Assembly (NCBI GenBank): GCA_026706845.1 | Contig: JAPOXY010000135.1 | Span: 5,266 to 69,265 of the forward strand | Origin: Gemmatimonadota bacterium | GTDB taxonomy: Bacteria; Latescibacterota; UBA2968 | Length of the DNA stretch: 64,000 nucleotides | Direction: 5' to 3' | Part shown: positions 36,349-57,928 of the stretch, piece after piece | How positions within the stretch are numbered: the first letter of the stretch is position 1 | Layout: each line of letters starts with the position of its first letter | Position numbers and translations under genes: made by a program | The notes under the pieces: model-generated | What the model saw: only the letters and a program-made list of their open reading frames with translations | What the model was told of the DNA's origin: nothing | Databases searched by the model: none

Positions 36349-36432
36349 AAAAACCTCCCTACTTAATTGCACAACAATCAGAATGCAATCACGATACGAA
36401 AAAGTTGTCCATACCTCATGATAATCAAACAA

Positions 36433-36449
36433 ATATTGATAATCAATAT
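36433..36449. promoter_or_regulatory. 17-bp palindrome ATATTGAT-a-ATCAATAT in the divergent sulfatase/PhyH intergenic region. Shares CAATAT/ATATTG cores with the 31621 repeat.
   Basis: Seen directly in the sequence. Flanked by the direct repeat TGATAATCAA (36417..36426, 36438..36447). Confidence 0.3.
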
Positions 36450-36554
36450 AGCCCACAAAAACAAAAAATGAAGAGTATTTGCCGTAGTTCAGAAATTAAC
36501 TTATTATGGGACATGGCAGAAAAGGCTTGTAAACCATCGAATGAGGAATACTCT

Positions 36555-37398: not shown

Positions 37399-38253
37399 TT
37401 AAACAACCGGTCTGATCTCTGGCGCGCCATTCTCTTCGCACCACGGCGTAAGTGGGCTATCTCCGCCACCAGCTTTGTAACCCTCTATCTTTGGATATCT
37501 TTCACCAACCAGATATCGGCCCAATTCATCCAGTTTATCCATAAAGGCAGGCTCCTGGCTTCGATAATCCAGCGGCATCACCCAACGATAGCCATAACCA
37601 ATCATGATCGCCTTTCGCATGTTACCCGATGTGTTTATCCCTGCTGCATGCCCGGTTCGATTTTCAAAGAATAGGCAATCACCCGCCTTTAAAGAAGCTT
37701 CAACATAACCTTTTGGTCCAGGCTCTCCTTCAGGGACTTCAATGGGGTTGCTATGGCGATTGGAGCCAGGCGCAACCAGCGTCATACCCGAGTTTGGTTC
37801 GGTCAGATCATTGAGATAAAACGCGCACTTTAACAACACACGGGGCACATGATTTCCCAATACTTTTGTCGCTGCACCATAATCGCGATGCCATCCGACC
37901 CGCCGAACTTTCTTCGAGGGATCGGAAGAGCCTCTATAAGCAAGTTGTGATACCATCAGTTGGATATGTGCACCCAAAAGCTGTACCGCAACCGACAGCG
38001 ATTTGGCGTGGGTTAGCAGTGGAATAAAAGCATCATCTTTCACAATACAATTCTTAAAGCCCAGTCGTCCCGTGCGCATGTGTTGGTCGTCACTCGCAAT
38101 CAACCGATCAGCAGCCTCAACGACCCGGTCAATCATGTCCTGATCGAGCACGTCGCGCACGATGAGATAGCCTTGCTCATCAAATTGCCTGATTTCTTGT
38201 TCTGAAAGCGCATGCCAGTCCAAATCAATCGACGATTCTGTCATCTGAGCCAT
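37399..38253 (-). CDS. PhyH-family Fe(II)/2OG dioxygenase (paralog 6).
   Basis: 'FDEQGYLIVRDVLD', 'GWHRDYGAA' (H-x-D), 'NRTGHAAGIN'. AAAGGAGAG Shine-Dalgarno before the ATG at 38253. Confidence 0.8.
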   Translation of the reverse strand: MAQMTESSIDLDWHALSEQEIRQFDEQGYLIVRDVLDQDMIDRVVEAADRLIASDDQHMRTGRLGFKNCIVKDDAFIPLLTHAKSLSVAVQLLGAHIQLMVSQLAYRGSSDPSKKVRRVGWHRDYGAATKVLGNHVPRVLLKCAFYLNDLTEPNSGMTLVAPGSNRHSNPIEVPEGEPGPKGYVEASLKAGDCLFFENRTGHAAGINTSGNMRKAIMIGYGYRWVMPLDYRSQEPAFMDKLDELGRYLVGERYPKIEGYKAGGGDSPLTPWCEENGAPEIRPVV

Positions 38254-38284
38254 TGTTTGCTCTCCTTTCATTTTGGCGCGGTGG

Positions 38285-39895: not shown

Positions 39896-39916
39896 CAATT
39901 CTCCATTCAACAATTT

Positions 39917-41971: not shown

Positions 41972-43399
41972 TCACCATTTTTGATCTATAATCAGAAATC
42001 CTTTCGCTTTACACAGTTCACTGTCTTTCCACCCGTAAAAGAGGAGCATGCCATCTCTTACATTTCCTTTTGGATCTTTGATCGGTTGAATATTGTTAAA
42101 TTTCCAACCGGCATACTCCGGGGCACGTGGCGTCAAATCTCTCACTCTTTGCCAGGTGAATCCACTATCTGTGGAGATCCACTCTTCAATATCTCCTCCA
42201 CCTTTGGAGTCCATGTTGCCACGTTTTCCTTTTATAAATTTGTGATCACCTACTATCAGATAAGCATGCAGCGTGCCACTTTCATCCTGCCTGAGATAGC
42301 AACTGTTCCAATCATCAGTGGCAGGGGTGATAACCGTCTGTATCCATTCATGGTTAATATACCTCACATAATAGTAATTGCACCTGTCGGGCACGTCTTC
42401 TGATAGCACATGCAAAAAGGCCGGATTGTCATTTTCATCTATGACAATATCAGGTGGAACGCCTGCGCCTCTCCAATCGGTATTCCAAATCTTGCATTTG
42501 TCATTTGCAGTGCCAATGTCAATGGGCGTTCTGACTGTCTCGCCATCAAAATTCGCAACCTCATGCGTTTGAAGGTTGATTTTTACATAATAGAGATTGT
42601 ATTTGAGCCCGAGATTCTTTTTGGTTCCATAACGGGGATTGTAAAACTTTTCTGGGATATCCTTCTTATTGTCATCATAAGAACAAAATACGGCGTGCAA
42701 AAACTTTCCATCTTTACTCGGAAAGCAAGTGTGATAAGAAGACCACTCATTCAAGTCCATCGGATTATCTACTGTTGCCGTTTCTTCCCCCATGTTTAAA
42801 TCTGTGACATCATTTTCAGGCCCTGACCAGGTTTTACCTTCATTGTCTGAAATTAAATATGACCACGAACTTCTGTGCTCTCCTGTTCGGAAATAAACCA
42901 CTTGTCTATTATTGTATATGTGATAAACCGTAGGGTAAGAAAGCGAGTTTCTTATTTCAGGGGCTGGAGACCAGTCTTCTACACTGTTTCCAATATCCGC
43001 TACCTTTTTGGATATTAAATGTGTTCCTGGCGTTTTGTGACAACCTGACAAAATATGTAAAAAGTCATCATTATCAGCCCAGATTATGGGGCAATAATGC
43101 TGGTCGTTTGAGCCTTTGGTTCCCAGCTGTATGGGGGATGAGGAGGACTTTGTCTCGGGGTTAAAAGAGATAACAAAAGGATATGTCTTTTCCCTGACCT
43201 CAGCATCCATTGGTGCCCCGCCATTATAGACGATATATACTCGATTGTTGATAAAGATGGCTTGAGGGCGCTGCCTTCTGTCATAGATCATTTTTAATTG
43301 TCCCCCACTTCCAAAGGGAACAACAGAAAAATCCGTTTGTTTCTCAGTGTCCACAGCCTGACCTCCAAATGCAATCGGTGAAATAAGAAGGACTCTCAA
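41972..43399 (-). CDS. BNR/Asp-box repeat (sialidase-fold beta-propeller) glycoside-hydrolase-like protein.
   Basis: Asp-box repeats 'SDNEGKTWSG' and 'STDSGFTWQ' (S-x-D-x-G-x-T-W). Low GC. Confidence 0.65.
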   Translation of the reverse strand: MRVLLISPIAFGGQAVDTEKQTDFSVVPFGSGGQLKMIYDRRQRPQAIFINNRVYIVYNGGAPMDAEVREKTYPFVISFNPETKSSSSPIQLGTKGSNDQHYCPIIWADNDDFLHILSGCHKTPGTHLISKKVADIGNSVEDWSPAPEIRNSLSYPTVYHIYNNRQVVYFRTGEHRSSWSYLISDNEGKTWSGPENDVTDLNMGEETATVDNPMDLNEWSSYHTCFPSKDGKFLHAVFCSYDDNKKDIPEKFYNPRYGTKKNLGLKYNLYYVKINLQTHEVANFDGETVRTPIDIGTANDKCKIWNTDWRGAGVPPDIVIDENDNPAFLHVLSEDVPDRCNYYYVRYINHEWIQTVITPATDDWNSCYLRQDESGTLHAYLIVGDHKFIKGKRGNMDSKGGGDIEEWISTDSGFTWQRVRDLTPRAPEYAGWKFNNIQPIKDPKGNVRDGMLLFYGWKDSELCKAKGFLIIDQKW

Positions 43400-43418
43400 T
43401 TTTCAGGAGTGCCACCAT

Positions 43419-46088
43419 TTACTTCCTGGTGGGGGTTCCTTCAGGATCTACTGTAGCGCCTGTTACAAATAATAAGGCATCTTTGGAAAGCTTCTTGCCG
43501 CCCACGTACATACCCCATCGAAAGGTACTGCGACCACTGGGTCTTTCCCAGTCGTGGCGTCCTATAAATTCTCCATTGATGTAGCATTCAGATGTATGGC
43601 CGTTGTCGCGAATGCGGACATCAAAAGACTTGCCTTCCATGTTCTTTAATACTGTCTTAGAAGTCGCTCTGCGCGGCTGGAATACGACGTCACCATCAGC
43701 GGTCATAACCAACATTATAGACCAGTCTTCACCGCTGTTTTTCACCTGAAAGATGCCACACCCCTGCGCTTTCACAATCGTGTAGGTGCCAATCCATTCA
43801 TGCCAGGTACCGCGGTTCCACCTCTTTTTGCTAAATGCCTCAATCCGGGCCGCATTGGCACGTGCATTGCGCACATTGTGCTCGCCATCAAAAAGGCGAA
43901 ATACCTGTGTGTTTCCGTCCTCTTGATACCATCGCGACCATTTGTGAAACTCACGTCGAGGAATCAAACTGTTGCCCGGTGTGTGAATATTGATTTCACT
44001 TTCTATAGGGCGAAAGGCATGAGGACCTTTTTCTACCACCTTGTTATTGACGTCAATTATCGAACCTGTTATTCCCGCAGAGGAGTTCGTACCGATCGGA
44101 ATCTGTTTCTCTTCGAGAATGGACGACCAGGAAGGATCACTGCCCTGCCTGGTGTAAAGGACCTGATCGGGGTCGTCTGTTGTAAAATCCAGGATCTTCT
44201 TTCGCGTTCCCTTGGTGATGGTGACAACCCCGCTGTTCCACTCAGCATTGAGAAAGGGGCTTTCAAAGACTTTCTTTGGCGCATAGTCGATTGGCTTGCC
44301 ATTGATTGAGGGTACGGCTTTGGCGCTGGTATCAAAGGTCAACTGATCGCCATAGATGGTTTTGTAGCGCAGCACCGTCCCATCTATATGAACTTCACAG
44401 GCTTTTACCTTTTTTTTGAAAGCGTCGAAACTCGTGACATCGCTCCTGGCCATGACTTCAATGATCACTGGTGCGTATTCATCATTGGGGATCATGGTCG
44501 CGTTTTCGGGAACAAAGCGATCCGTTTCAAACTCGCCATCCATCCACTTGAAACCGCCTGTGGACACGCGGATCGCCGCATAAGCGCCTTTGGCCTCCAC
44601 ATAGACCACGCCATCCTCTTCTACTGGCGCGCTCAACCCGCTCTTCGACATCCAGATGATCATCTCGGCACCGTCCTTATGGTGCTTGAGCTTCTGGGTA
44701 ATCAAGCTGCCTTTGCTCTGCACGGACCACTGTGCATTCAGGGCCACCCGGTTGTCTTTGGGGCGAACGATGGGAACAATACGCGCATCGTGTTCGCCGG
44801 CAAAGATCACGCCTTGCCAGCGGTTTTGCACACTGATCGCAGCCCAATCCTCCAGGGGCCTCGCTTCCGTCATTGGCGTTCCCATGATGAAGGCGGGATC
44901 ACAGTAGCTGTAGCGCAGAATACCCCCTCCATCGGTTCGCATCCTGGTCGGCACTTGTGTATCAGCAGTCTTCAAAGGGCGACCCGTTTTTCCCAGACCC
45001 TGGGGACGCTGCCGCACCTCGTAGCGTCCTCGTCCTGCCACGTCGATTGCGATATCGGCCACCACGGCTGGTGGTCGGTAGTCGCTGAGAGCCGCGTTCA
45101 CGTCATGACCATAAACAGCAGGCTGCTTGCCGATGCCAAAGTAGAACCAGGCCAGCGGCGCATTGCCATGATCCCGATTTTGCTTAAGCCCTTTCCAGAA
45201 ATAGATCCGCGACCGCCCACCACCTTGAACGCCGTCAATCTGTTCCTGCGCCCAATAGGCAAAATAAAGATCGAGCAACAGCCCGGCTGACCGTCTCACC
45301 TGCGGGTCACCAAAGTCGTAGAAATTGTAGAACCCCTTGATCAATGTGCTGTTATAATCGTCGCACATCATCTCGATGCACAGGCTTTTGCGCGCACGTT
45401 CACGGCAGTAAACCACAAAATACGCATTCCAGGCCCGATAATGTTCCGCCGCCGTAGCGCCGTCATCATACTTGAGATTCTTGTATTCGGGCCGATCTTT
45501 CGCGATTTTGGCAAATTGCCAGCAGACCGTAAAACTCATGGCATGATGATTCTCTGACAGGTAGATGTGCCAGGTCTTAGATTTCTCGTATTCCGCCTTA
45601 TCAAGCCGGGAAACCTTCCTGACGTATTCCCAAATTGGCTTGAGAGCGAGGGCTTCGGTCTTTTTGGTGATGCGATTACTACCGTTGGCGCCGTACATCT
45701 CAATCAGCCGCATGACGATCTCCGCATGCCAGTGAAAACTGTCGCGATCATTGATGTCCATGGGGTTGTCGAGATAATGCTGGGCATTTTCGACAAGTGC
45801 GGCATTGGCTTCTTCCAGCATCTCGTTCAGGTAGAGGCAACGTGCAGCAAACCCCACCATGGAATAGGAATAGGCCCGCACATAATTTCCTCGCCCGGGA
45901 TCGAGTGGCTTCTGTTTTTTTGCTCGCACCAACGGCTTGCCGGATTCAGCGCGAAACATCGCATCCACTCGCTGGTCAAAGCCAGCTACGACCGCTTCGG
46001 GGGTAAAATTCTTCTTCACTGGTTCCGCTCCTTGTGTCTGCCCAGTTATAAGTATAACGATCAGCATTATGCGGTTTATAATTCGCAT
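43419..46088 (-). CDS. Secreted large protein (~889 aa), paralog of 46451..48550 and 9313..11166. Candidate polysaccharide lyase (heparinase II/III-like) with beta-sandwich C-terminal domains.
   Basis: Signal peptide 'MRIINRIMLIVILITGQTQGA' from the ATG at 46088 (weak Shine-Dalgarno). Block 'LSENHHAMS...CDDYNSTLIKGFYNFYDF...GLLLDLYFAYWAQEQIDGVQGGGRSR' aligns with the 46451 protein. Confidence 0.6.
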   Translation of the reverse strand: MRIINRIMLIVILITGQTQGAEPVKKNFTPEAVVAGFDQRVDAMFRAESGKPLVRAKKQKPLDPGRGNYVRAYSYSMVGFAARCLYLNEMLEEANAALVENAQHYLDNPMDINDRDSFHWHAEIVMRLIEMYGANGSNRITKKTEALALKPIWEYVRKVSRLDKAEYEKSKTWHIYLSENHHAMSFTVCWQFAKIAKDRPEYKNLKYDDGATAAEHYRAWNAYFVVYCRERARKSLCIEMMCDDYNSTLIKGFYNFYDFGDPQVRRSAGLLLDLYFAYWAQEQIDGVQGGGRSRIYFWKGLKQNRDHGNAPLAWFYFGIGKQPAVYGHDVNAALSDYRPPAVVADIAIDVAGRGRYEVRQRPQGLGKTGRPLKTADTQVPTRMRTDGGGILRYSYCDPAFIMGTPMTEARPLEDWAAISVQNRWQGVIFAGEHDARIVPIVRPKDNRVALNAQWSVQSKGSLITQKLKHHKDGAEMIIWMSKSGLSAPVEEDGVVYVEAKGAYAAIRVSTGGFKWMDGEFETDRFVPENATMIPNDEYAPVIIEVMARSDVTSFDAFKKKVKACEVHIDGTVLRYKTIYGDQLTFDTSAKAVPSINGKPIDYAPKKVFESPFLNAEWNSGVVTITKGTRKKILDFTTDDPDQVLYTRQGSDPSWSSILEEKQIPIGTNSSAGITGSIIDVNNKVVEKGPHAFRPIESEINIHTPGNSLIPRREFHKWSRWYQEDGNTQVFRLFDGEHNVRNARANAARIEAFSKKRWNRGTWHEWIGTYTIVKAQGCGIFQVKNSGEDWSIMLVMTADGDVVFQPRRATSKTVLKNMEGKSFDVRIRDNGHTSECYINGEFIGRHDWERPSGRSTFRWGMYVGGKKLSKDALLFVTGATVDPEGTPTRK

Positions 46089-46101
46089 TATAAACACTCT
46101 G

Positions 46102-46416
46102 TTAATCCTGGTGAAAAACTTCCTGTAGCGGTATGCAGACCGGCGAGTTGTCGGGGTTGGTGTCCATGATATCGGCCATGTAGGCCCACCATTTCTTGAC
46201 GATTGCGGTCTCCGGCAACTCATCTGCAGTATTGTCGTCGGCCAGCTTCTGCACGGCAAAGAGTGTCAGTGTCTCTTCATCGAGAAAAATTGAATAGTCC
46301 GAGACGCCAGCTTTGCCCAATTCTTCAGCCAGTTCGGGCCAAATTTCATCGTGGCGCTTTTTGTACTCGGCTTCGTAGCCGGGCTTTAGCTGCATCTTGA
46401 AAGCATTGCGTTGCAT
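46102..46416 (-). CDS. rhaM: L-rhamnose mutarotase.
   Basis: 104 aa 'MQRNAFKMQLKPGYEAEYKKRHDEIWPEL...KKWWAYMADIMDTNPDNSPVCIPLQEVF', near-collinear with E. coli RhaM/YiiL ('KAFVMQVNP..EEYQRRHNPIWPEL...[26 protein letters not shown]'). AGGAG Shine-Dalgarno. The longer track ORF (to 46680) is an out-of-frame overlap with the upstream gene. Confidence 0.85.
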   Translation of the reverse strand: MQRNAFKMQLKPGYEAEYKKRHDEIWPELAEELGKAGVSDYSIFLDEETLTLFAVQKLADDNTADELPETAIVKKWWAYMADIMDTNPDNSPVCIPLQEVFHQD

Positions 46417-46450
46417 GATATTTTGCTCCTGACTTTGAGGTTGAAGGGTG

Positions 46451-48550
46451 TTAGTATTCGTCCCTTGAATTGTTGTTAAAGTCGAGGTTGAGTTTGTAAT
46501 CGCCTTTGCAAATTTCAATCTGGCCGCTATCATAATTGGATTGGATATAAGGGCTGTCGAAAACTTTTGGGTGCTCATAATCGACATACTTTCCACCAAC
46601 TGTAGGCACATCGCTTGTATTGGCCGCATTAAATACCATTTCTGCCATTTCAGGCGCGGCACTCTTGTAAACGACAACAATGCCTGTTTCTCTTGTTACC
46701 ACGGTTCTATAGAGTGTGAGTTCGCCCTGCAAAATCATACGCTTAAAACTTTCCAATGTTGGGTGATCTGCCTTGCGACCTGCTTCTATCAGAACGGGAC
46801 TGTATCTGTTGGTCAGTTGCACAATCGTCTGATCGTTATTGAATCTATAGCTGTCGTTTCTAAGAACCACATTGCCCCGGTACCTGTCGGTCCCTTTTGC
46901 CCAGGCTTTGGCATCGGCCTCTGCTTCCAAAAGAATAACCCGTATTGCCACATAGACATTTCTCTTCTCTGCAAATATCCATCCATCTGCTTCATCAATA
47001 CGATCCCATCCGTTGCCTAAAAATAACCCGAATTCCCGATCATACCGATTGTCATTGGCTGGATACCAGTCTGGATTGGATTGTGCCCAACGTCTTCTTT
47101 GTTGGGTGATCAGCACTTGCTTATGCTGGACGCTGTGATACACCAATTCCATATCGTAGATATTTTCACCTTCGCGTTCTCCTTCTGGCGTATCCAGTGC
47201 AATGGTTGCCAGACGGGTATTGGGATCTTTGGTCACCAGACCTTGCCAGCGCCCGGCAGTTGATAGGTGGTTGTAAAGCGCATAAGGGTGATCCATTTGA
47301 GTACCCAGCACATAATCTGGCGTTACCCAGGTGTATTTGACAAACCGCGATGGCGTATCTCCCATCACGGTGCGCTCCGTGCCCAATGGACGGGGGCTGG
47401 TAGGTTCTTCTTCTCCAATGCCCCGAGAGAGATATGCAAATGACCCGAGCCCTTTTCGATCCAGAGCCAATTCCCATACGATTCTTGGCCAGGCATAGTC
47501 GCTTAAGAGTTGTTGCGGATAGTTGAACGAGGTTTTGCCCTCACCACCCAGATAGAAAATGGCGAGATCCGACATAGAATCGTATCCACCAGCAGTCTTG
47601 TGGTGGCGCGTTTTGGGACCACCTCGTAAACCTGCAATTTGTAGCTGTGCCCAATCGGCCCACATCAGATCTAAAAACATGCCAATTTTCTTTTTTAGCC
47701 CCTCATCACCACAGAAATTGTAGAGCATAAGAATATAACTGATGGTGTACTTCATATAGGTAGGCGAACCATTTTCAAGAAAGAATCCCCGCTTTGCACG
47801 CTCAGTGAAATAGTCATTGAGATAGGGCAACCAGGCATCGTAATGATCGGCTGCGTTATAAGATTTTCCATCCGCCCAATTTGCACGCCCACCACCGTGT
47901 CGATCATTGCTGCCCTGCCCACAATAGCCCGATTCGCCGTATCCGATGCCATCTCCATAACCGAGGTCGGGATAAATGCGGTCAACATACTCGGGTTCAT
48001 TGGCAAAAATACGCGCACTTAAAAGATTACAGGCTTTTGTATTCAGGTCGTGATTCTCACTACCCGCGATCCACCAGGTGCTCTTTTTTGCGACAGAAAT
48101 ATCATTTTTGTACCTGGTTCGCGCCCATAGTAAAGCCAGCAAAGTTCGCTCTGTTTCAGGCGTGAGTCGATTTGGCATCTGTGTACTTTTAGACCCAAAC
48201 CAATTGTAGAATGTAATCAGCCTTGGATTGCGCCACAGGCTGTAGAGACTCTGCCCGGGTTGTATGCCTTTCTCCTCACATTCTGCGAGATTTGCCAGTT
48301 CGATTTGAAAATCTATCGTCAATTCTTTGTTGACTTCGTTTAGATTTTGGTTGAGCCACATCTGATCAAACATCTGACGGTCTTTGCCCGAGAAGTCTGA
48401 TTTTGCACCTGCTTCAAAGGCTTGTTGAATGCGTTGTGGACGCGTTTCCAATTCTTCTGCCATTAATTCGGTGATACGCTTGTCGATGGGTGAATCACCA
48501 AATTCCAGAAGGGATCGAAACCAACTGTTTTTAGCATCTGCTTCAGGCAT
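46451..48550 (-). CDS. Cytoplasmic paralog (699 aa) of the 43419 and 9313 proteins. Candidate polysaccharide lyase-like.
   Basis: 'GSENHDLNT...FLENGSPTYMKYTISYILMLYNF...GMFLDLMWADWAQLQIAGLRGGPKTR'. No signal peptide. Confidence 0.65.
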   Translation of the reverse strand: MPEADAKNSWFRSLLEFGDSPIDKRITELMAEELETRPQRIQQAFEAGAKSDFSGKDRQMFDQMWLNQNLNEVNKELTIDFQIELANLAECEEKGIQPGQSLYSLWRNPRLITFYNWFGSKSTQMPNRLTPETERTLLALLWARTRYKNDISVAKKSTWWIAGSENHDLNTKACNLLSARIFANEPEYVDRIYPDLGYGDGIGYGESGYCGQGSNDRHGGGRANWADGKSYNAADHYDAWLPYLNDYFTERAKRGFFLENGSPTYMKYTISYILMLYNFCGDEGLKKKIGMFLDLMWADWAQLQIAGLRGGPKTRHHKTAGGYDSMSDLAIFYLGGEGKTSFNYPQQLLSDYAWPRIVWELALDRKGLGSFAYLSRGIGEEEPTSPRPLGTERTVMGDTPSRFVKYTWVTPDYVLGTQMDHPYALYNHLSTAGRWQGLVTKDPNTRLATIALDTPEGEREGENIYDMELVYHSVQHKQVLITQQRRRWAQSNPDWYPANDNRYDREFGLFLGNGWDRIDEADGWIFAEKRNVYVAIRVILLEAEADAKAWAKGTDRYRGNVVLRNDSYRFNNDQTIVQLTNRYSPVLIEAGRKADHPTLESFKRMILQGELTLYRTVVTRETGIVVVYKSAAPEMAEMVFNAANTSDVPTVGGKYVDYEHPKVFDSPYIQSNYDSGQIEICKGDYKLNLDFNNNSRDEY

Positions 48551-48568
48551 ATTATTGCTCCACCTCGC

Positions 48569-50803
48569 TCACACTGAGCAGTCCCCGGCGTCTGTTGTAC
48601 CGGTATCAAATGTCCATCCGTCCCACATGTTGTCAACGGTCGCTGGCACATCCTCTCGAAAGTTTCGGGTATCGACCCACCACTGACGGTTTGGTGCTGG
48701 TCCATGCGACAGGTTAAAATATGGCGTCATACCATCTCGTTGATACTCACAGGGAACAACGAGACGCACGACAGGTCGATCGCGGTCAGCAGAGCGATTG
48801 ACACCTCCCCCGTGAATAAGGCGAGGATGCCAGAAAACAACGTCCCCTGCTTTGCCGGAAAACTCCACTGGCGCAATCTCTCTCAGCACATTGTCACGGG
48901 CTTTGCTATATGGCTCTGCGAGGTCGGGGTCAAGGGGACCGTAAACAGTAGTGTGATACAAGTGACTCATGTAATGTGACCCCGGCCAGATTGTAAAGCC
49001 ACCAGAGTGCGGAGGCACCGTATCTACAAAAACCATTGCAGACAATTGAGCCGCTGTATGGTCTCCATGGGGGGCCAAACGACTTTCCGAATTTGGTGGT
49101 TTTGGAAATATACAATAGACCCCTCGCACCCGGTTTGAACGTTTAACCGGCTCGCCGATGAACAATGAAACCAACTGCCGCATACGTGGGTGGTTGGCGA
49201 TCTTATCGACAAAAAAAGGCTCTGTACCAATTTTACGCGAGCGCATCTTCCAGGTGCCGCGCGCAAATTGTCCTGCCTTTTCGGCATCCGCCGCTGTCCA
49301 CTGCCCGTGTGGCGCATCGAACCACGTTTGCACATCGTCGCGTTTGACAATCTCACGCGGCACATTTTCCCACACATAATCCACGATCCGGTCAAACGTC
49401 TCCTTCTCTTGCAGAAACCCGCGTTTCACAAGAAAACCATTCTCTTTGAAAAACGCGACTTCGGCTTCACTGAGGGTTGGGTCTCCATTCACAAATTCTG
49501 GATCGGGCAAGAGGGCGGGGTCTCCGTTCGCTAATTCTGGATCGACCAATACCTGGGGATCACGGATGACGACGTCTTCGGAAATTCTGAGCGCGTGTAA
49601 ACCGCTCCCTTCAAATGGCGGCACTAAAAGATTGTAGATTTGTTGCGCTTTCTCTTTCTGATTCATGCATGCCAATTCGGCTTTCACAGGCTCAAAATCC
49701 ATATTTAAATAAAGGTAAGCAGCGAGCCTCAGACATCTAAATGCGGGCTCTCCAGAAAAGGGTTGAATCTGTGGAAGTGTCCACTCGCGATCGCCCACCC
49801 AGTAGGGATAAAGCCAATCAAAGGCGCGTCGCATGGATCGCCCATCGGTAGATTCATAATTGGCGAGATCAATACCCCACTGTCGGCCAATTTCAGCGAG
49901 TTCTAAAAGAAGCTCCAAATTCATACTCGCGTATCCAAGTGCCTTTGTGCGTGCGAGTTCCAGAGGCTGTTGACCATCTGGCTCAATCTGATCGGCAATC
50001 CTTCTTTCTCCCACCCCTTTTAATATCATTCGCGCAAGATCTGATTGCCCCACAAAAAGCGCGAATGTCACAACCTGAATATCATAAGAACTCGAATGGT
50101 TATTGCCATGACGCGCTTCGTCAACCCCATAAGGATGCTTCAACATCCATTCGAGAAACGCGTGAAACCAGGCCTGCAAATCTTCCATATCTTTTTGGGA
50201 CCAGTTCTTAGAGTCGCGCAAAAAACTGACCGCAGGGAGCATCTCGCGTGCAAATGCCGCTGTCTCAATAAGCCCGATACCTCGCCCTTCGCATATCCCG
50301 GGTATGGCCTGTCCAAACAACAGGTTTGGGTTCATCTTGGTTTCGGGATTCATAAACCATGTTCGCAACAACAATGCAGCATGCGCCGCGTAGTCTTCTC
50401 GCTGTGTAAAACCATACGCTAACCCCAGCGTTTTCACCGTTGAAATGAATTTTGCCAACAAAGGGCGGTCCGTTTTCTCGACCTCGGGATTGACCTCGCC
50501 ATCTCGTCGGATATAAGGCAAACCGTCAGGCTTATCGGGGTCTGGCCACCAGTAAGGTCCAACACTCATGTAATCGTGTTTGTCACTACTGGCAGGCAAG
50601 ATCGGTTTGTTCACAATGGTCAGCGGTTCCTGCTTCAAAGCGGCATCCGCTTTCACAAGCAGGGCTTTAAGGGCTTGCCCACACGGGTTATCTTCCCGTT
50701 TGCTCAACGAGCGCGCCCGCTTGATATAATCGGGATCTACTGTAAATATGGGTTCAGCAGGTGAAAACGCCTTGAGCAGATCAGCTTCTTTGTCTGGATA
50801 CAT
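48569..50803 (-). CDS. Two-domain fusion: N-terminal alginate-lyase/heparinase-N-like alpha/alpha-toroid domain (~430 aa) plus a C-terminal PhyH-family Fe(II)/2OG dioxygenase domain (paralog 7).
   Basis: N-terminal 'DKHDYMSVGPYWWPDPDKPDGLPYIRRDGEVNP' is alginate-lyase-like (uncertain). C-terminal 'EAEVAFFKENGFLVKRGFL', 'APHGDHTAAQ' (H-x-D), 'HPRLIHGGGVN'. Single uninterrupted 744-aa ORF. Confidence 0.7.
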   Translation of the reverse strand: MYPDKEADLLKAFSPAEPIFTVDPDYIKRARSLSKREDNPCGQALKALLVKADAALKQEPLTIVNKPILPASSDKHDYMSVGPYWWPDPDKPDGLPYIRRDGEVNPEVEKTDRPLLAKFISTVKTLGLAYGFTQREDYAAHAALLLRTWFMNPETKMNPNLLFGQAIPGICEGRGIGLIETAAFAREMLPAVSFLRDSKNWSQKDMEDLQAWFHAFLEWMLKHPYGVDEARHGNNHSSSYDIQVVTFALFVGQSDLARMILKGVGERRIADQIEPDGQQPLELARTKALGYASMNLELLLELAEIGRQWGIDLANYESTDGRSMRRAFDWLYPYWVGDREWTLPQIQPFSGEPAFRCLRLAAYLYLNMDFEPVKAELACMNQKEKAQQIYNLLVPPFEGSGLHALRISEDVVIRDPQVLVDPELANGDPALLPDPEFVNGDPTLSEAEVAFFKENGFLVKRGFLQEKETFDRIVDYVWENVPREIVKRDDVQTWFDAPHGQWTAADAEKAGQFARGTWKMRSRKIGTEPFFVDKIANHPRMRQLVSLFIGEPVKRSNRVRGVYCIFPKPPNSESRLAPHGDHTAAQLSAMVFVDTVPPHSGGFTIWPGSHYMSHLYHTTVYGPLDPDLAEPYSKARDNVLREIAPVEFSGKAGDVVFWHPRLIHGGGVNRSADRDRPVVRLVVPCEYQRDGMTPYFNLSHGPAPNRQWWVDTRNFREDVPATVDNMWDGWTFDTGTTDAGDCSV

Positions 50804-50827
50804 GTGAATGCTCCTGTTTTAAGTTGG

Positions 50828-52762
50828 TTATTGTAAATCGATTTCCAGTTGCAAATAATCGTACATAACGCCAAAGTGAGGATAGTTCTGTCGTTGTCCG
50901 CGGTGTTTTTTTAGTGGGAGGAGGTCGAGTGTCAACACATTCTCTCCTGCACGCAACAGCGACGCATCAAACGCAATAAAGTGCTCACTGAAGCGCCCGT
51001 AGATGCCACTGCGAGGAAGCGCACTGTCGTTCTCCAAACCGGTAATCTCGTCCAGAGGTTTGCCATTGAGGCCGATAGCGATACCCCCATCGCGATTCAC
51101 CGCCGCCAGGGCGATTGTGAGGGTCGCACGTCCGGACACTGGCTTATCATCGTATTGAAATCGGATCTTCCAGGCAGGCAGTCGCCAGTTGCCTTCTCCA
51201 GTCCGGTCAGCAGGCTGTATGCGGGGTTGCCATCCGCCTTTCTCTTCCCAAATTGCCATCTGTGCATAATTCCAGTCGCTTCGCTCTTTGCTCTTTCCGA
51301 CCGCGAAATCGACATCCTCGGGAAAATCCTTCTGGTAATTGAACCATAGCCCCCAGTGGCGATGGTCATCTCCGCGTCGAAATTCAGCAGCAGTTCGGTC
51401 TGGTTTTCCGACACGCCAGAGCAACTTGCCGAAAGAACGGGGTGACCACTGCAGACTGCCGAGTTTGACTTCGCCGGTTGCGTCGATCGTGACGTCATCT
51501 TTTCTAAACTCGCCAATCATGTCAGGGGCAAATGCATAAAGCGTATATCTTCCTTTTCGGACAGCCGGTATTGCAAAGGAACCATCAGCCGCCATCCTGG
51601 CGCGGTAGATGTAGTTCTCTGCGCCTTGCTGCTGCCAGTCCAGTCCTCGATATTCCTGGGGCCGCGCCAGAACGACCCATCCATTGCTGTGGTGTGTCAG
51701 ACCCGTATCTTTGAATTGTCCCGTAACCACAGCCCTGTCGATCGGGTACTCCGGATGTTGTAGCCAGCTGTAGGGCCAGTGCTTTCGGTGTTTTTCACCC
51801 TCGCGCTTTGCATCATACCACAAATGCCGGGCATCTTCACCTTTGTTCATATAAACAAATACCGGCCCGAAGATCTTCTCCCATTTACCGCTGACGTAAT
51901 CCCCTCTGCTGCCGTAGTGGTGAGAATAGAGCAGCTTCAGGATGATCGGACCCCGATCAGTCGCGTGGCTGGTATTGTGTTGTTTTGTCGGACCGCCGCA
52001 GAGGTATTCATTGCTCGGCGTGACCATCCACACGCCCTGCTTTCCATTGTGCAAACCGTGTACAAGAGCCTCCTGAGTTGGAGATGACCAGTTATACTTT
52101 GTATCCACTTCTCCCGATTGGAGCGCATGTGTGGCATCCATCACCATGCCCTTTGCGCTGGATATTGCCTTGCTATCCGGAATCACACCAGAGAGTTTGT
52201 CATTGACCCTGATATTCACCATCGAATCGTTTAGGCGCATCCCAAAACGAAGCTGTGTCAGTACGGCGTCGCCCGTATCCCCGGGTTTGCTGGCCACAAC
52301 ATAATAATAGAACCCCGAATCACCCGCTCTCAAGACATAATGGAGTTCCATCTTGAACGGGAAACCTGCGGGTTGTTTGGGGGTGAATGAAACATCGATC
52401 ATTTCCGGGTTGTTGACGTGGATGTTGAACTCGGGGTTTTGGTCGCGCAAAAATTTTGCCCTCGCACTCGACTCTTTACCCGCCATATAGTTTGTATCCG
52501 AATCATCGACATAACTGGCCAGGATGGTGAAATATCCAAACTGCCTGGGAGATAGGAGAGAGTCCCCCTGATGTTCCAACGAGATAATCCGCCCCGTAGA
52601 TTTTTGGATCGTCATCGAAACGGAATTGTTCTCGAGGATGATTCTATTGCCAGATTCAACAAGCATCGAAGCCTCTGCGAAAACCGGCGTGCTGATCATA
52701 CACTGGATGGATATAAGCAGAATGCACGCCGCGAATCTGCCAAATCCAATCTTTTTGAACAT
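50828..52762 (-). CDS. Secreted polysaccharide-lyase-like protein. The weak resemblance to PL4 rhamnogalacturonan lyase architecture is an unverified impression.
   Basis: Signal peptide 'MFKKIGFGRFAACILLISIQCMISTPVFAEA'. ~640 aa of beta-sandwich-like sequence. Family assignment tentative. Confidence 0.55.
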   Translation of the reverse strand: MFKKIGFGRFAACILLISIQCMISTPVFAEASMLVESGNRIILENNSVSMTIQKSTGRIISLEHQGDSLLSPRQFGYFTILASYVDDSDTNYMAGKESSARAKFLRDQNPEFNIHVNNPEMIDVSFTPKQPAGFPFKMELHYVLRAGDSGFYYYVVASKPGDTGDAVLTQLRFGMRLNDSMVNIRVNDKLSGVIPDSKAISSAKGMVMDATHALQSGEVDTKYNWSSPTQEALVHGLHNGKQGVWMVTPSNEYLCGGPTKQHNTSHATDRGPIILKLLYSHHYGSRGDYVSGKWEKIFGPVFVYMNKGEDARHLWYDAKREGEKHRKHWPYSWLQHPEYPIDRAVVTGQFKDTGLTHHSNGWVVLARPQEYRGLDWQQQGAENYIYRARMAADGSFAIPAVRKGRYTLYAFAPDMIGEFRKDDVTIDATGEVKLGSLQWSPRSFGKLLWRVGKPDRTAAEFRRGDDHRHWGLWFNYQKDFPEDVDFAVGKSKERSDWNYAQMAIWEEKGGWQPRIQPADRTGEGNWRLPAWKIRFQYDDKPVSGRATLTIALAAVNRDGGIAIGLNGKPLDEITGLENDSALPRSGIYGRFSEHFIAFDASLLRAGENVLTLDLLPLKKHRGQRQNYPHFGVMYDYLQLEIDLQ

Positions 52763-52916
52763 TTTGTGTTTTTCTATGAAGTGTTGCACAACGAAATATC
52801 TTGATTGAGGTTCATTTTTGTATGTACTATTATACCAGTAGTTCTACACTCACGTTGTCTTGCGCTACACCGATCCGGTAGCGCGGACTGAACTCGAAAC
52901 AATGGGAAGAATACAT

Positions 52917-54326
52917 ATGACACAAGAACGACCACACATACTCATTCTTACGGCGGACCAGCTACGGGCGGATTCTATGGGTTGCGCCGGTCATCCACGG
53001 GTCAAAACGCCGGTCATTGACTCGCTTGCCAACGACGGCATGCGGTTCAGCAATTGCCACACCGTGTCGCCGGTCTGCCAGCCGTCGCGCGTGTCGTTCA
53101 TCACTGGCACCTACCCTCACAACCACGGCATCTGGTACAACCGCGGCGAACTGCCGATCAACTACCCGACGCTATTCTCCCAATTGCGGGACGCTGGCTA
53201 CCACACGGCAACCGTGGGCAAGTCTCACCTCTGGAGCCACAAGAAGGTGTCTCATTTGCGCGAAGGCGAGCCGTATCTGCAAGCGCTCGGCTTTGACGAC
53301 ATTGACGAACTCGGTGGACCGCGGGGGAGTCTCAACTCGGACTCGTACTTCACCGACTACCTGCGCGAGAAAGATCTGTTCGAGCTCTTCGTCAGCGACA
53401 CGCGCGAACGGGTTCGCGACCCAAAGCTCGTCAAACCGGCGGTGTTTGAGGAGGACGACCACATGGACGGGTACGTGGGCAGGCGCTCGGTCGAGTTCGT
53501 CGATTCTGCGCCCGGGGACCGTCCGACCTGTCTGTTCGTCAATTTCCCCGGACCACATGACCCGTGGGACGCGCCGGGGAAGTACGCCACCATGTACGAT
53601 CCGTCCGATTCGCCACCCGCCATCGGCGTGCCACCACGCCCCGCCACGCTCCCCGACGAGGTCGCCCAAAAGGAGGACTTCAAGACGGAGCCGGGCCTGA
53701 CCGCCGAAATCGCCGCTGCGATCCGGGCAAATTACGATGGCAAGATCACATTCGTCGATCACTGGTGCGGTGAGATCCTTGCGGCGTATGAACGACGTGG
53801 CTGGCTCGATGATCTCTGCGTCGTGTTCTGGTCCGATCACGGCGAAATGACCGGCGATCACGGCAGGGTGTTCAAACGCACCTTTCACGAATCTGCATTG
53901 CGGGTCCCCCTGATCCTGCGCTGGCCCGGACGGATACCGGCCGGTACTGTCTGCGACGCACTGGTGGAAACCATTGACGTCGGCCCTGCCTTGCTGGAAG
54001 CCTTGGGGCTCGACCAGTTGCAGATGTCCCTTGGGCAGTCGCTGGGGCATCTGTTCGCGGATCCGACCGCGCACCACCGCACCGAGGTGTTGTCAGAGAT
54101 TTTCTACGGCGGTTCGCGCAATACGATGGTGAAAACCGAACGCCACAAGTACGTCATGGATCAGCACGGCAGGGGGTACATGCTGTACGACATGCAGCAG
54201 GACCCGGATGAGCAGCACAATCTGATCGGCGATCCCGAGCATCGGGATACGGAAAACGAGATGCGGGACACGCTGCTTCGTCGCCTCGCTGCCAGCGCGT
54301 TTGTCATGGACAGCGTGAACCTTTGA
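52917..54326 (+). CDS. Formylglycine-dependent sulfatase, no signal peptide.
   Basis: 'MTQERPHILILTADQLRADSMGCAG', 'CQPSRVSFITG'. The track ORF begins at the TTG at 52860; the ATG at 52917 is preferred. Confidence 0.9.
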   Translation: MTQERPHILILTADQLRADSMGCAGHPRVKTPVIDSLANDGMRFSNCHTVSPVCQPSRVSFITGTYPHNHGIWYNRGELPINYPTLFSQLRDAGYHTATVGKSHLWSHKKVSHLREGEPYLQALGFDDIDELGGPRGSLNSDSYFTDYLREKDLFELFVSDTRERVRDPKLVKPAVFEEDDHMDGYVGRRSVEFVDSAPGDRPTCLFVNFPGPHDPWDAPGKYATMYDPSDSPPAIGVPPRPATLPDEVAQKEDFKTEPGLTAEIAAAIRANYDGKITFVDHWCGEILAAYERRGWLDDLCVVFWSDHGEMTGDHGRVFKRTFHESALRVPLILRWPGRIPAGTVCDALVETIDVGPALLEALGLDQLQMSLGQSLGHLFADPTAHHRTEVLSEIFYGGSRNTMVKTERHKYVMDQHGRGYMLYDMQQDPDEQHNLIGDPEHRDTENEMRDTLLRRLAASAFVMDSVNL

Positions 54327-55277: not shown

Positions 55278-55461
55278 AGCACCTAACTCCTTTCTGTCAT
55301 TGCGGTTTTCCTTCAGGTTGTTGGGATAAGGCATGTTAATACGTTAATCGCTTGCTGGCAATTCAATTTGCTGAGTGTTCTGAGCCTGATGTCAAAAAAA
55401 GCAGGGAGTTGACATTTCCTTTGCAGGGTTTGCGTGAATGCTCAAAATGTAGTCACAAAAA

Positions 55462-57754: not shown

Positions 57755-57928
57755 AAATACTGTAGAAGGCCTCCTATATTTAAGTCCCATTTGGGTCAAA
57801 AAATATTACATGGTCAAAGAAATTATTTTTGAACACGGTTTGTTTTCAAACAGAGAGAATTTGCCCACGAGATTGATTAAATGCATGTGTGAAGAAGATG
57901 AGGCAGGTTTGGTGAGAAAATCAAGTGA

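What the first reader, a model, noticed from the sequence alone, without database searches (positions are those of the whole stretch)
41972..52789. Rhamnose mutarotase embedded among lyase-like, BNR and paralogous glycan-active genes points to a rhamnose-containing sulfated polysaccharide as substrate
A confidently identified L-rhamnose mutarotase (46102..46416) is co-oriented on the minus strand with five genes. These are a BNR/sialidase-fold protein, two paralogous large lyase-like proteins (one with a signal peptide, one without), the lyase-PhyH fusion, and a secreted lyase-like protein (50828..52762) that I only tentatively liken to PL4 rhamnogalacturonan lyases. Combined with the flanking sulfatases, the most parsimonious target is a sulfated rhamnose-rich glycan such as ulvan or rhamnan sulfate from green algae, or a sulfated rhamnogalacturonan. 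The complement differs from characterised ulvan PULs of Bacteroidetes: there are no PL24/25/28 beta-propellers and no SusCD. This may therefore be a distinct pathway.
Basis: inference. Interest (0 to 1): 0.55.

Follow-up and report, generated by a model that had tools for sequence, protein, structure and literature searches.

The report
Rhamnose–uronic acid glycan lyase operon
It most likely breaks down a sulfated rhamnose- and uronic-acid-containing polysaccharide such as ulvan, using some enzyme types that nobody has characterised.

Summary
Six co-directional genes (52789→41972, gaps of 13-34 nt) encode these products:
- a PL4-like lyase with a signal peptide;
- a PL38-like lyase fused to a PhyH dioxygenase;
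- an uncharacterised toroid+sandwich protein, paralog B;
- L-rhamnose mutarotase, which scores above the cutoff of NCBI's equivalog model TIGR02625;
- paralog A, which has a signal peptide;
- a BNR_4 β-propeller.

The "BNR/sialidase-fold protein" is itself a PL25-like propeller:
- PL25 ulvan lyase 5UAM is its best solved relative by sequence (profile E 4e-11) and by fold (Foldseek E 2e-21, TM about 0.7).
- Residues equivalent to His123, Tyr188 and Arg204 are invariant in its subfamily.
- The top 22 fold hits are, with one uncharacterised exception, enzymes that cleave Rha-(1→4)-GlcA/IdoA bonds (PL25, PL42, GH145, PL24).

Paralogs A and B belong to a large unannotated family (about 1,800 cluster representatives) with the fold of PL15, PL33 and dermatan-sulfate epimerase.

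The window (98% identical to Latescibacterota MAGs, probably sponge-associated) holds 13 Cys-type sulfatases without signal peptides, nine PhyH-like dioxygenases and no recognisable glycoside hydrolase.

A sulfated Rha–uronate glycan is well supported as substrate. Ulvan specifically is plausible but unproven. I rate this a new variant of a known kind, of moderate interest.

The parts
50828..52762 (-). PL4-like (rhamnogalacturonan-lyase family) protein with an N-terminal signal-like peptide (MFKKIGFGRFAACILLISIQCMISTPVFA). The ORF extends to a GTG at 52789.
   Evidence: Pfam PF14683 E 1e-29, PF14686 E 4e-15, PF06045 24.2 bits (cutoff 22.8), PF09284 26.7 bits (cutoff 27.2). tblastn: 24-25% identity over 70-78% of its length, E down to 6e-37, to Ca. 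Stammera capleta plasmids; 28% over 90% to an Enterobacter 'polysaccharide lyase family protein'. Stammera encodes a PL4 RG lyase (bioRxiv 10.1101/2023.12.12.571295). No solved relative by sequence.
48569..50803 (-). Fusion of a PL38-like (alpha/alpha) barrel lyase (aa ~30-390) with a PhyH-family Fe(II)/2-oxoglutarate dioxygenase domain (aa ~450-675). No signal peptide.
   Evidence: Pfam PF05426 E 4e-86 and PF05721 E 1e-17. PDB 3nfv E 2e-89 and BoPL38 8bdq/9fht E 7e-64; equivalents of BoPL38 H243 (NNH), Y298 (GY) and Y91 (PYWWPD) are conserved (roles from bioRxiv 10.1101/2024.12.11.627697). HGD...H motif in the PhyH part. Fusion conserved at 67-97% identity in Latescibacteria and Gemmatimonadetes.
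46451..48550 (-). Paralog B of an unannotated toroid+beta-sandwich (lyase/epimerase-fold) family. 699 aa, no signal peptide.
   Evidence: 27% identical to paralog A, E 9e-48. No Pfam or NCBIfam hit even at E 5. No PDB sequence hit. Shares the family's invariant SENH...Y residues (A1).
46102..46416 (-). L-rhamnose mutarotase (RhaM/YiiL), 104 aa.
   Evidence: TIGR02625 equivalog 126.8 bits, cutoff 99.6. PF05336 E 4e-30. Present in 10 of the 12 related Latescibacterota loci examined and directly after paralog B in nine of them, despite rearrangements.
43419..46088 (-). Paralog A: signal-like peptide, alpha-toroid (aa ~30-350), beta-sandwich (aa ~350-640), and an unplaced 245-aa C-terminal domain.
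   Evidence: AF2 model confident for aa 30-640. Foldseek: dermatan-sulfate epimerase 6hzn E 5e-7, PL33 8r6z E 4e-5, PL15 3a0o E 1e-4, PL8. Family is 60-80% conserved across phyla and named 'hypothetical', with 1,818 cluster representatives. C-terminal domain: no Pfam hit, not DUF1961.
41972..43399 (-). PL25-like seven-bladed beta-propeller (Pfam BNR_4), a putative lyase for Rha-(1->4)-uronate bonds. Its GC content is 42%, against 52% for the window.
   Evidence: PF15892 E 3e-13. phmmer to 5UAM E 1.6e-4; subfamily profile to 5UAM E 4.4e-11, next hit a sialidase at 0.03. H101/H121/Y155/R171/H175 align with PL25 H123/H143/Y188/R204/H208 and are invariant in 43 homologues. AF2 pLDDT 86. Foldseek top hits PL25 E 1.6e-21, TM 0.68/0.73, then PL42, GH145, PL24. 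GC.
39917..41908 (-). Cys-type sulfatase plus HEAT repeats, 63 nt downstream of the propeller gene. Its reading frame is interrupted by TAA at 41843-41845.
   Evidence: Pfam sulfatase plus HEAT_2. The N-terminus continues upstream in frame. Relatives have TAC (Tyr) where the window has TAA, and L001 has a run of N there.
38285..39913 (-). Cys-type sulfatase without signal peptide, 3 nt after the previous gene.
37399..38301 (-). Stand-alone PhyH-family dioxygenase that overlaps the preceding sulfatase gene by 17 nt.
   Evidence: PF05721 E 6e-16. Spacing.
52860..54326 (+). Divergently transcribed Cys-type sulfatase, 70 nt from the PL4-like ORF.
   Evidence: PF00884 E 9e-50. Best PDB relatives are 4upi and choline-sulfatases. 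The ulvan sulfatases 6hhm (E 3e-33) and 6hr5 (E 5e-25) are not the closest.

Best explanation
This is an operon of a Latescibacterota bacterium for lyase-based depolymerisation of a sulfated polysaccharide built from L-rhamnose linked to uronic acids. The bonds are of the ulvan type, Rha(3S)-(1->4)-GlcA/IdoA, possibly together with glucuronan.

Proposed course (inferred except where marked):
1. The two proteins with signal-like peptides, the PL4-like lyase and paralog A, and perhaps the PL25-like propeller, cut Rha-(1->4)-uronate bonds outside the cytoplasm by beta-elimination.
2. Oligosaccharides are imported by a transporter that is not in the window.
3. In the cytoplasm, paralog B and the PL38-like lyase trim uronate-containing oligomers. 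The signal-peptide-less Cys-type sulfatases remove sulfate esters. The PhyH dioxygenases, one of them physically fused to the PL38 domain, carry out an as yet unknown oxidative step on the sugars.
4. RhaM interconverts the anomers of the released L-rhamnose for catabolism.

Shown here: the domain identities, folds, conserved catalytic residues, operon-like packing and synteny. Inferred: substrate, cellular location, order of steps, and any activity of paralogs A and B and of the PhyH proteins.
For: - RhaM passes NCBI's equivalog cutoff. It sits mid-operon, with gaps of 13 and 34 nt.
- RhaM is present in 10 of the 12 related loci examined, always within the cluster, even where gene order is rearranged.
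- PL25 ulvan lyase is the propeller's best solved relative by sequence and by fold, and the catalytic His/Tyr/Arg are invariant (roles from PMC13193363).
- The top 22 Foldseek hits for the propeller are PL25, PL42 (L-Rha-alpha-1,4-GlcA lyase), GH145 and PL24, plus one uncharacterised 'putative neuraminidase' (4irt), ahead of lectins and sialidases.
- The PL4 family cleaves Rha-(1->4)-GalA (established knowledge). Homology here extends over the catalytic N-terminal part.
- The PL38 catalytic residues are conserved. Known PL38 activities are alginate and beta-1,4-glucuronan lyase, and glucuronan is a green-algal wall polymer (PMC11890756).
- Paralogs A and B have the two-domain fold of uronate lyases and epimerases. 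PL40 ulvan lyase has the same architecture (PMC12915356).
- In other phyla, homologues of paralog A lie next to sulfatases (14 loci), GH78 rhamnosidases (3 loci), DUF1961 and esterases. They lie near BNR_4 genes in Haloferula and a Pirellulaceae MAG.
- BNR_4 homologues elsewhere are flanked by sulfatases.
- The window holds 13 sulfatases.
Against: - No GH105/GH88 (unsaturated uronyl hydrolase), GH78/GH106 rhamnosidase, xylosidase, rhamnose kinase/isomerase or sugar transporter was recognised in the 64 kb.
- The propeller is only about 17% identical to PL25. Its Zn site is only partly recognisable.
- The one sulfatase compared with solved structures is closer to 4upi and choline-sulfatases than to the ulvan sulfatases.
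- Outside the close Latescibacterota relatives the six-gene combination is not conserved.
- The likely habitat is sponge tissue, inferred from the contig label and from accessions of a type I recall being used for host-associated metagenome bins (own knowledge). That habitat offers other sulfated glycans.
- No activity was measured.
Confidence: 0.6

Rival explanations
1. The operon targets non-ulvan Rha-uronate structures. Candidates are pectic rhamnogalacturonan-I, the Rha-alpha-1,4-GlcA caps of (sulfated) arabinogalactan proteins, or bacterial or microalgal exopolysaccharides that contain Rha and GlcA.
For: - PL4 is a rhamnogalacturonan-lyase family.
- PL42 and GH145, which act on AGP Rha-GlcA caps, are the next-best fold matches after PL25.
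- Relatives of paralog A are fused or adjacent to DUF1961, esterases and GH78. DUF1961 is the family of B. subtilis YesU in the RG-I operon; that link is my recollection and was not tested.
- Sulfated AGPs as bacterial nutrients are documented (PMC8406133, seen).
Against: - PL25 is the top hit by both sequence and fold.
- The density of sulfatases (13 in 64 kb) is unusual for pectin loci.
- No GH28, GH105, CE8 or CE12 pectin enzymes were found.
Confidence: 0.2
2. The locus is a host-glycan island. The sulfatases and lyase-fold enzymes degrade sulfated GAG-like polysaccharides of a sponge host, and RhaM and the PL4/PL25-like genes are recruited for minor rhamnosylated decorations or are only loosely related in function.
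For: - The window matches Latescibacterota MAGs and a contig labelled ROBB21. Sponge-associated Latescibacterota are enriched in carbohydrate-active enzymes and eukaryote-like repeats (PMC8163846).
- An ankyrin-containing sigma-factor fusion and a HEAT-repeat sulfatase lie in the window.
- The best fold hits for paralog A include dermatan-sulfate epimerase and the hyaluronan-active PL33.
Against: - Three independent rhamnose-linked components sit inside one tight operon.
- No PL8, PL12, PL13 or PL21 signatures and no hexosaminidases were found.
- The sponge origin is itself an inference.
Confidence: 0.12
3. Paralogs A and B are not lyases. They are uronyl C5-epimerases or glycoside hydrolases with an (alpha/alpha) toroid, for example replacing the missing GH105/GH88 or rhamnosidase functions.
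For: - The top fold hit is an epimerase (6hzn). Weaker hits include GH146, GH154 and GH88.
- No GH was recognised in the window.
- Ulvan contains both GlcA and IdoA (PMC12915356).
Against: - Several PL families (PL33, PL15, PL8) match with probability 0.97-1.0.
- An invariant N-H ... Y arrangement sits at the start of alternate helices, as in PL15/17/40. The correspondence is inferred, not superposed.
Confidence: 0.25

Closest known systems
PL25 ulvan lyase PLSV_3936 (PDB 5UAM/5UAS)
   Same: - Same seven-bladed propeller and same Pfam domain (BNR_4).
- Same size (473-residue PDB chain vs 475 aa).
- It is the best hit by sequence profile (E 4e-11) and by fold (E 2e-21, TM about 0.7).
- Equivalents of His123, His143, Tyr188, Arg204 and His208 are conserved.
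   Different: - Only about 17% identity.
- The spacing between the catalytic His and Tyr is 54 residues, against 65 in PL25.
- Zn ligands His264, Cys266 and His278 are not clearly matched.
- It belongs to a separate clade found in Latescibacteria, Planctomycetota, Verrucomicrobiota and Bacteroidia.
- No clear signal peptide.
- Activity untested.
Ulvan utilisation loci of Bacteroidota (e.g. Formosa agariphila PUL H; recalled from Reisky et al. 2019, not re-read here)
   Same: Both combine ulvan-type lyases, many sulfatases and an L-rhamnose mutarotase in one locus.
   Different: - No SusC/SusD.
- No recognisable GH105, GH88, GH78, GH3, GH39 or GH43.
- The sulfatases lack signal peptides.
- The locus adds PL4-like and PL38-like lyases, an unannotated toroid family and nine PhyH-like dioxygenases.
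PL4 rhamnogalacturonan lyases (Aspergillus RhgB; Ca. Stammera capleta plasmid enzyme)
   Same: Three-domain architecture. Domains II and III match strongly, and homology extends into the catalytic N-terminal domain.
   Different: About 24-28% identity. The N-terminal domain sits at or near the Pfam thresholds. The catalytic Lys/His were not checked. The context is a marine sulfatase-rich locus, not a pectin locus.
PL38 lyases (BoPL38, PDB 8BDQ; BACOVA protein 3NFV)
   Same: E 7e-64 to 2e-89 over the whole catalytic barrel. Equivalents of catalytic His243, Tyr298 and Tyr91 are conserved.
   Different: It is fused C-terminally to a PhyH dioxygenase domain. That architecture was seen only in Latescibacteria and Gemmatimonadetes. 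There is no signal peptide.
Two-domain toroid + beta-sandwich uronate enzymes (PL15 Atu3025, PL33 BtPL33HA, PL40 ulvan lyase Uly1040, dermatan-sulfate epimerase 1)
   Same: Same overall architecture. Foldseek probability is 0.97-1.0 for PL15, PL33 and DS-epimerase. PL40 is matched by architecture only, as described in PMC12915356. An invariant Asn-His and a downstream Tyr sit at the starts of alternate helices.
   Different: About 10% identity and TM only 0.3-0.4. No Pfam, NCBIfam or PDB sequence match. There is no conserved His pair in the beta-domain of the kind described for PL40.

Membership tests
L-rhamnose mutarotase (RhaM/YiiL, TIGR02625) | Score above the curated equivalog cutoff over the full length | tested here: met
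   126.8 bits against a cutoff of 99.6; profile positions 1-101 of 102 matched.
PL25 ulvan lyase | Seven-bladed beta-propeller most similar to PL25 structures | tested here: met
   AF2 pLDDT 86. Foldseek ranks 5UAS/5UAM first, E 1.6e-21, TM 0.68/0.73.
PL25 ulvan lyase | Significant sequence similarity to family members | tested here: inconclusive
   phmmer E 1.6e-4 and subfamily profile E 4.4e-11 to 5UAM, but about 17% identity and only residues 61-297 of the chain aligned. dbCAN/CAZy assignment could not be run.
PL25 ulvan lyase | Catalytic His123, Tyr188 and Arg204 (PMC13193363) | tested here: met
   They align with H101, Y155 and R171, which are invariant in 43 subfamily members.
PL25 ulvan lyase | Zn site His208/His264/Cys266/His278 | tested here: inconclusive
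   H175 aligns with His208. An H235...C239 pair exists but with different spacing, and no partner for His278 is seen.
PL25 ulvan lyase | Beta-eliminative cleavage of Rha3S-(1->4)-GlcA/IdoA | not testable with these tools
   Needs an enzyme assay.
PL4 rhamnogalacturonan lyase | Three-domain architecture with PL4 domains II and III | tested here: met
   PF14686 E 4e-15; PF14683 E 1e-29.
PL4 rhamnogalacturonan lyase | PL4 catalytic N-terminal domain | tested here: inconclusive
   PF06045 24.2 bits (cutoff 22.8) and PF09284 26.7 bits (cutoff 27.2). tblastn alignments to Stammera and Enterobacter homologues start at residues 34-137. The catalytic Lys/His were not examined.
PL38 lyase | Full-length similarity to characterised PL38 and conserved catalytic His/Tyr | tested here: met
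   E 7e-64 to BoPL38 and 2e-89 to 3nfv. Equivalents of H243, Y298 and Y91 are conserved.
PhyH Fe(II)/2OG dioxygenase | Pfam PF05721 above threshold and an HxD/E...H iron triad | tested here: met
   65 bits against a cutoff of 22 for the fused domain. An HGD motif was found and a downstream His was read in the sequence. The nearest solved relatives are very distant: PAHX E 0.004, SnoK E 0.08.
Bacteroidota-type ulvan PUL | SusC/SusD pair; GH105/GH88; GH78; S1_7/S1_8/S1_25 sulfatases | tested here: not met
   No such Pfam domains in the 64 kb. Sulfatase 52860 is not closest to 6hhm or 6hr5. The other 12 sulfatases were not subtyped.
Any described PL/GH family for paralogs A and B | Match to a curated sequence model | tested here: not met
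   No Pfam hit at E <= 5, no NCBIfam hit, no PDB sequence hit. Similarity is at fold level only. The CAZy HMMs were not available.

The most novel reading that the evidence does not exclude
The nine mutually divergent PhyH-family Fe(II)/2-oxoglutarate dioxygenases that interleave with the 13 cytoplasmic sulfatases, one of them fused to a PL38 lyase, form a previously unrecognised class of carbohydrate-processing enzymes. They would act oxidatively on sulfated or otherwise modified sugars. Possible reactions are oxygenolytic removal of sulfate or methyl-ether groups, or processing of the unsaturated uronates for which this locus has no GH105/GH88.

In parallel, the paralog A/B family (about 1,800 cluster representatives) would be a new polysaccharide-lyase family acting on Rha-uronate glycans.
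Probability: 0.2. Interest if true: 0.8.

Novelty: new variant of a known kind. Interest (0 to 1): 0.5.

Why it matters
According to PMC12915356, characterised ulvan lyases come from only two phyla, Bacteroidota and Pseudomonadota.

- A Latescibacterota operon with a PL25-like propeller, RhaM and a PL4-like lyase would extend Rha-uronate (ulvan-type) degradation to an uncultured phylum. It would do so with a different logic: no SusC/D, no recognisable glycoside hydrolases, and cytoplasmic sulfatases.
- The operon supplies concrete expression targets. These are a divergent PL25-like clade, a large unannotated lyase-fold family that is widespread in marine Planctomycetota, Verrucomicrobiota, Kiritimatiellia and Latescibacterota, and a conserved lyase-dioxygenase fusion.
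- If the PhyH enzymes act on sugars, that would add an oxidative step to sulfated-glycan catabolism.

Tried and rejected
- **Fucose reading of RhaM.** I considered that the mutarotase might be a fucose-type member of the family. I rejected this because it passes the rhamnose equivalog cutoff.
- **C-terminal domain of paralog A.** I tested whether it is the DUF1961 domain found in homologues. There is no similarity and no Pfam hit, and AF2 could not fold it.
- **Conservation of the six-gene cluster around paralog-A homologues in 78 genomes.** It is conserved only in close Latescibacterota relatives. Two query fragments in that script (the paralog A C-terminal domain and the fused PhyH domain) were out of frame, so those two columns are invalid for distant loci. 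The PhyH question was redone.
- **Sulfatase subtyping.** It was only possible for one sulfatase, by PDB comparison, and gave no ulvan-specific signal.
- **Literature searches.** PhyH + sulfatase + polysaccharide gave 0 papers. A search for a described family matching paralogs A and B found nothing relevant.
- **Promoter scan.** Uninformative: 23 sites against about 15 expected.
- **RNA genes.** Rfam and tRNA scans of the window found nothing.
- **Rhamnan sulfate as main substrate.** Judged less likely, because a backbone without uronic acid would not need five lyase-type enzymes (inference).

Full report
**Observation**

The region 41972-52789 contains six minus-strand ORFs at the coordinates given.
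- RhaM, 46102-46416: PF05336 E 4e-30. It scores 126.8 bits against the equivalog model TIGR02625, cutoff 99.6.
- BNR_4 protein, 41972-43399: PF15892 E 3e-13.
- Fusion protein, 48569-50803: Alginate_lyase (E 4e-86) plus PhyH (E 1e-17).
- Three-domain PL4-like protein, 50828-52789: domain III E 1e-29, domain II E 4e-15, and weak N-terminal hits.
- The two large proteins without any Pfam hit (43419-46088 and 46451-48550) are true paralogs, 27% identical, E 9e-48.

Only paralog A and the PL4-like protein begin with hydrophobic signal-like peptides (read by eye, no predictor was available). Gaps between consecutive genes are 24, 18, 34, 13 and 19 nt, and no terminator-like hairpin lies between genes. 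The six genes are therefore packed like one operon, with RhaM in the middle. A sulfatase, a second sulfatase and a PhyH gene follow at +63, +3 and -17 nt.

**Origin**

The paralog A gene region is 93-98% identical at protein level to complete chromosomes of Candidatus Latescibacterota MAGs (L002-L007). The same protein occurs on an ENA metagenome contig labelled ROBB21-1_SAMN13943208. The label and the type of accession suggest a sponge metagenome (compare Robbins et al. 2021, PMC8163846). That is an inference, not a result.

**The BNR protein is a PL25-like propeller**
- phmmer finds only PL25 ulvan lyase 5UAM/5UAS in the PDB (E 1.6e-4).
- A profile of 43 homologues raises this to E 4.4e-11. 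The next hit is a sialidase at 0.03.
- The chain index in the PDB file is offset by 24 from the native numbering. In the alignments, the window residues H101, H121, Y155, R171 and H175 fall on PLSV_3936 His123, His143, Tyr188, Arg204 and His208. All five are invariant in the subfamily.
- PMC13193363 states that His123, Tyr188 and Arg204 are the catalytic residues and that PL25 lyases carry the BNR_4 domain.
- The AF2 model is confident (pLDDT 86, pTM 0.86).
- Foldseek against the PDB ranks PL25 first (E 1.6e-21, TM 0.68/0.73). Next come PL42 L-Rha-alpha-1,4-GlcA lyase, GH145 and PL24 ulvan lyases. The one other entry among the top 22 is 4irt, an uncharacterised Bacteroides ovatus 'putative neuraminidase'. 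Lectins (1e-9) and sialidases (1e-8) follow.

So apart from 4irt, the 22 best structural relatives are enzymes that break an L-Rha-(1→4)-GlcA/IdoA bond. The GH145 activity is my recollection; the entry titles say only 'Glycoside Hydrolase'.

There are caveats. Identity to PL25 is only about 17%. The Zn ligands other than His208 are not clearly matched. Family membership in the CAZy sense could not be tested.

**The other lyases**
- *PL38-like domain.* The N-terminal domain of the fusion protein matches BACOVA protein 3nfv (E 2e-89) and BoPL38 (E 7e-64). Equivalents of the catalytic H243, Y298 and Y91 are conserved. [quoted passage not shown]
- *PL4-like protein.* It has no solved relative by sequence. 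It aligns over 70-90% of its length with an Enterobacter 'polysaccharide lyase family protein' (28%) and with small plasmids of Ca. Stammera capleta (24-25%, E down to 6e-37). Those plasmid records are unannotated, but Stammera encodes a PL4 rhamnogalacturonan lyase.

**Paralogs A and B**

Homologues are numerous, 60-80% identical across Verrucomicrobiota, Kiritimatiellia, Planctomycetota, Lentisphaerota, Gemmatimonadota and Latescibacterota, and almost all are named 'hypothetical'. An exhaustive profile search finds 1,818 cluster representatives at E ≤ 1e-3 and 561 at E ≤ 1e-30.

AF2 predicts an alpha-helical toroid (aa ~30-350) and a beta-sandwich (aa ~350-640) with high confidence. The extra 245-residue C-terminal domain of paralog A is not predicted. 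Foldseek hits are dermatan-sulfate epimerase 1 (E 5e-7), PL33 (E 4e-5), PL15 (E 1e-4) and PL8 (about 1e-3), with probabilities of 0.97-1.0 apart from one of the two PL8 entries (1f1s, 0.66). TM-scores are low, 0.3-0.4.

Asn180-His181 and Tyr245 are invariant across the family, paralog B included. They lie at the starts of helices 179-196 and 245-259. This recalls the Asn-His/Trp...Tyr arrangement of PL15, PL17 and PL40 (PL40: PMC12915356). That correspondence is inferred, not superposed.

So 'lyase-like' is justified at fold level, but the family has no curated model. An epimerase or hydrolase activity is not excluded.

**Context elsewhere**

The full six-gene combination is conserved only in close Latescibacterota relatives. 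There RhaM stays in the cluster through rearrangements: it is present in 10 of the 12 related loci examined and follows paralog B directly in nine of them.

In other phyla, the recurrent neighbours of paralog-A homologues are:
- sulfatases (14 loci);
- tandem paralogs;
- DUF1961 genes (8 loci), also seen as fusions;
- esterases;
- GH78 rhamnosidases (3 loci).

Some family members carry CBM96 or Ig-like modules. A BNR_4 gene lies next to the homologue in a Pirellulaceae MAG, and one lies 7 kb away in Haloferula helveola.

BNR_4 homologues in Bacteroidia and other bacteria sit among sulfatases, PhoD-like proteins, esterases and Amidohydro_2 genes. These associations fit a sulfated, possibly acetylated, rhamnose-containing substrate. 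They do not identify it.

**The wider window**
- All thirteen sulfatases have the Cys-type CxPxR-like motif and none has room for a signal peptide.
- Nine PhyH-like proteins are present, only 20-30% identical to each other. In the loci sampled they are enriched only in this Latescibacterota lineage, plus the fusion in Gemmatimonadota.
- No glycoside hydrolase, SusC/D or sugar transporter was recognised.
- The only sulfatase I could compare with solved structures (52860-54326) is closest to 4upi and choline-sulfatases, not to the ulvan sulfatases 6hhm and 6hr5.

**Interpretation**

The best-supported reading (confidence about 0.6) is an operon for beta-eliminative depolymerisation of a sulfated Rha-uronic acid glycan. 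Secreted enzymes (the PL4-like lyase and paralog A, and perhaps the propeller) act first. Cytoplasmic enzymes (paralog B, PL38-PhyH, the sulfatases, the PhyH proteins and RhaM) finish the job.

Ulvan, possibly with co-occurring glucuronan, is the single best candidate because PL25 is the nearest relative of the propeller. I put ulvan in the strict sense at only about 0.3. Rivals are RG-I, AGP-cap or EPS-type Rha-uronates (0.2), and sponge-host sulfated glycans (0.12). Independently of the substrate question, paralogs A and B may not be lyases at all (0.25).

Latescibacteria were already proposed in silico to degrade ulvan, via heparinase-like lyases (PMC4454575). The general idea is therefore not new; the specific enzyme set is.

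**Verdict**

This is a new variant of a known kind, a polysaccharide-degradation locus. The real unknowns are the paralog A/B family, the PL38-PhyH fusion and the PhyH expansion. Interest 0.5.

Noticed in passing
window 8290-9132, 15670-16518, 20549-21391, 30509-31603, 36405-37322(+), 37399-38301, 48569-49501, 54351-55334, 57929-58735: Nine PhyH-like Fe(II)/2OG dioxygenase domains lie in 64 kb, interleaved with 13 sulfatases. They are only 20-30% identical to each other. One is fused to the PL38-like lyase. Full-text searches for PhyH together with sulfatase and polysaccharide found no papers. In the loci sampled, the enrichment is specific to this Latescibacterota lineage, plus the fusion in Gemmatimonadota.
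   Followed up: partly
window: 13 sulfatase ORFs (11758, 19236, 21446, 23045, 24405, 25881, 27368, 33453, 34999, 38285, 39917, 52860, 61128): All are Cys-type (CxPxR-like motif). For most, the longest possible ORF starts only a few residues before the conserved first beta-strand, so they have no signal peptide. This suggests cytoplasmic desulfation of imported oligosaccharides.
   Followed up: partly
window 41843-41845 (minus strand), within sulfatase 39917-41908: An in-frame TAA interrupts the N-terminus of the sulfatase that follows the propeller gene. Close relatives have TAC (Tyr) there, and the matching metagenome contig L001 has a run of N at the same spot. This is either a nonsense mutation or an assembly error.
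   Followed up: yes
window 41972-43399 and 31871-33415: The PL25-like gene (42% GC) and a PL2-like/C5-epimerase-like gene (44% GC) are compositional outliers in a 52% GC window. The closest non-Latescibacterial homologues of the propeller include Bacteroidia (65-68% identity), which hints at horizontal acquisition.
   Followed up: partly
window 55526-57799 (-): A single 757-aa ORF combines ECF sigma-70 regions 2 and 4, ankyrin repeats and an ATP-synthase alpha/beta-type nucleotide-binding domain. It is called as one gene on the independent contig L001 as well. It may be a regulator of the locus.
   Followed up: no
window 43419-44156 (-), C-terminal 245 aa of paralog A: This appended domain has no Pfam hit and no similarity to the DUF1961 domain found at this position in homologues, and AF2 could not fold it. 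Its sequence (RIEAF..., GIFQVKN..., FRWGMYVG) looks to me like a PL7/concanavalin-type jelly roll. That is an impression only.
   Followed up: partly
whole window 1-64000: No glycoside hydrolase, SusC/D, TonB-dependent receptor or sugar transporter was recognised by Pfam. Three sizeable ORFs (9280-11166+, 28958-30427-, 62626-63504-) have no family hit at all. A beta-helix protein with a PDZ-like tail lies at 16558-19143.
   Followed up: partly
loci L008, L010, L011 vs window: Gene order within the cluster differs among Latescibacterota MAGs that are 93-98% identical. For example, paralog A is separated from RhaM by PL38-PhyH and paralog B in L010 and L011, and paralog B is missing in L008. RhaM stays in the cluster in all three.
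   Followed up: partly
loci L080, L082-L085: PhoD-like phosphodiesterase genes recur immediately beside, or a few genes from, BNR_4 homologues in Bacteroidia and Haloferula. No PhoD gene is present in the window.
   Followed up: no
window 13424-15656 (-): An enolase-superfamily acid-sugar dehydratase lies next to an aldo/keto reductase and a PhyH gene. The dehydratase is below every NCBIfam cutoff; its best hit is talarate/galactarate dehydratase, and rhamnonate dehydratase scores only 55 bits. This may be part of a sugar-acid pathway. It is not identifiable as rhamnose catabolism.
   Followed up: no
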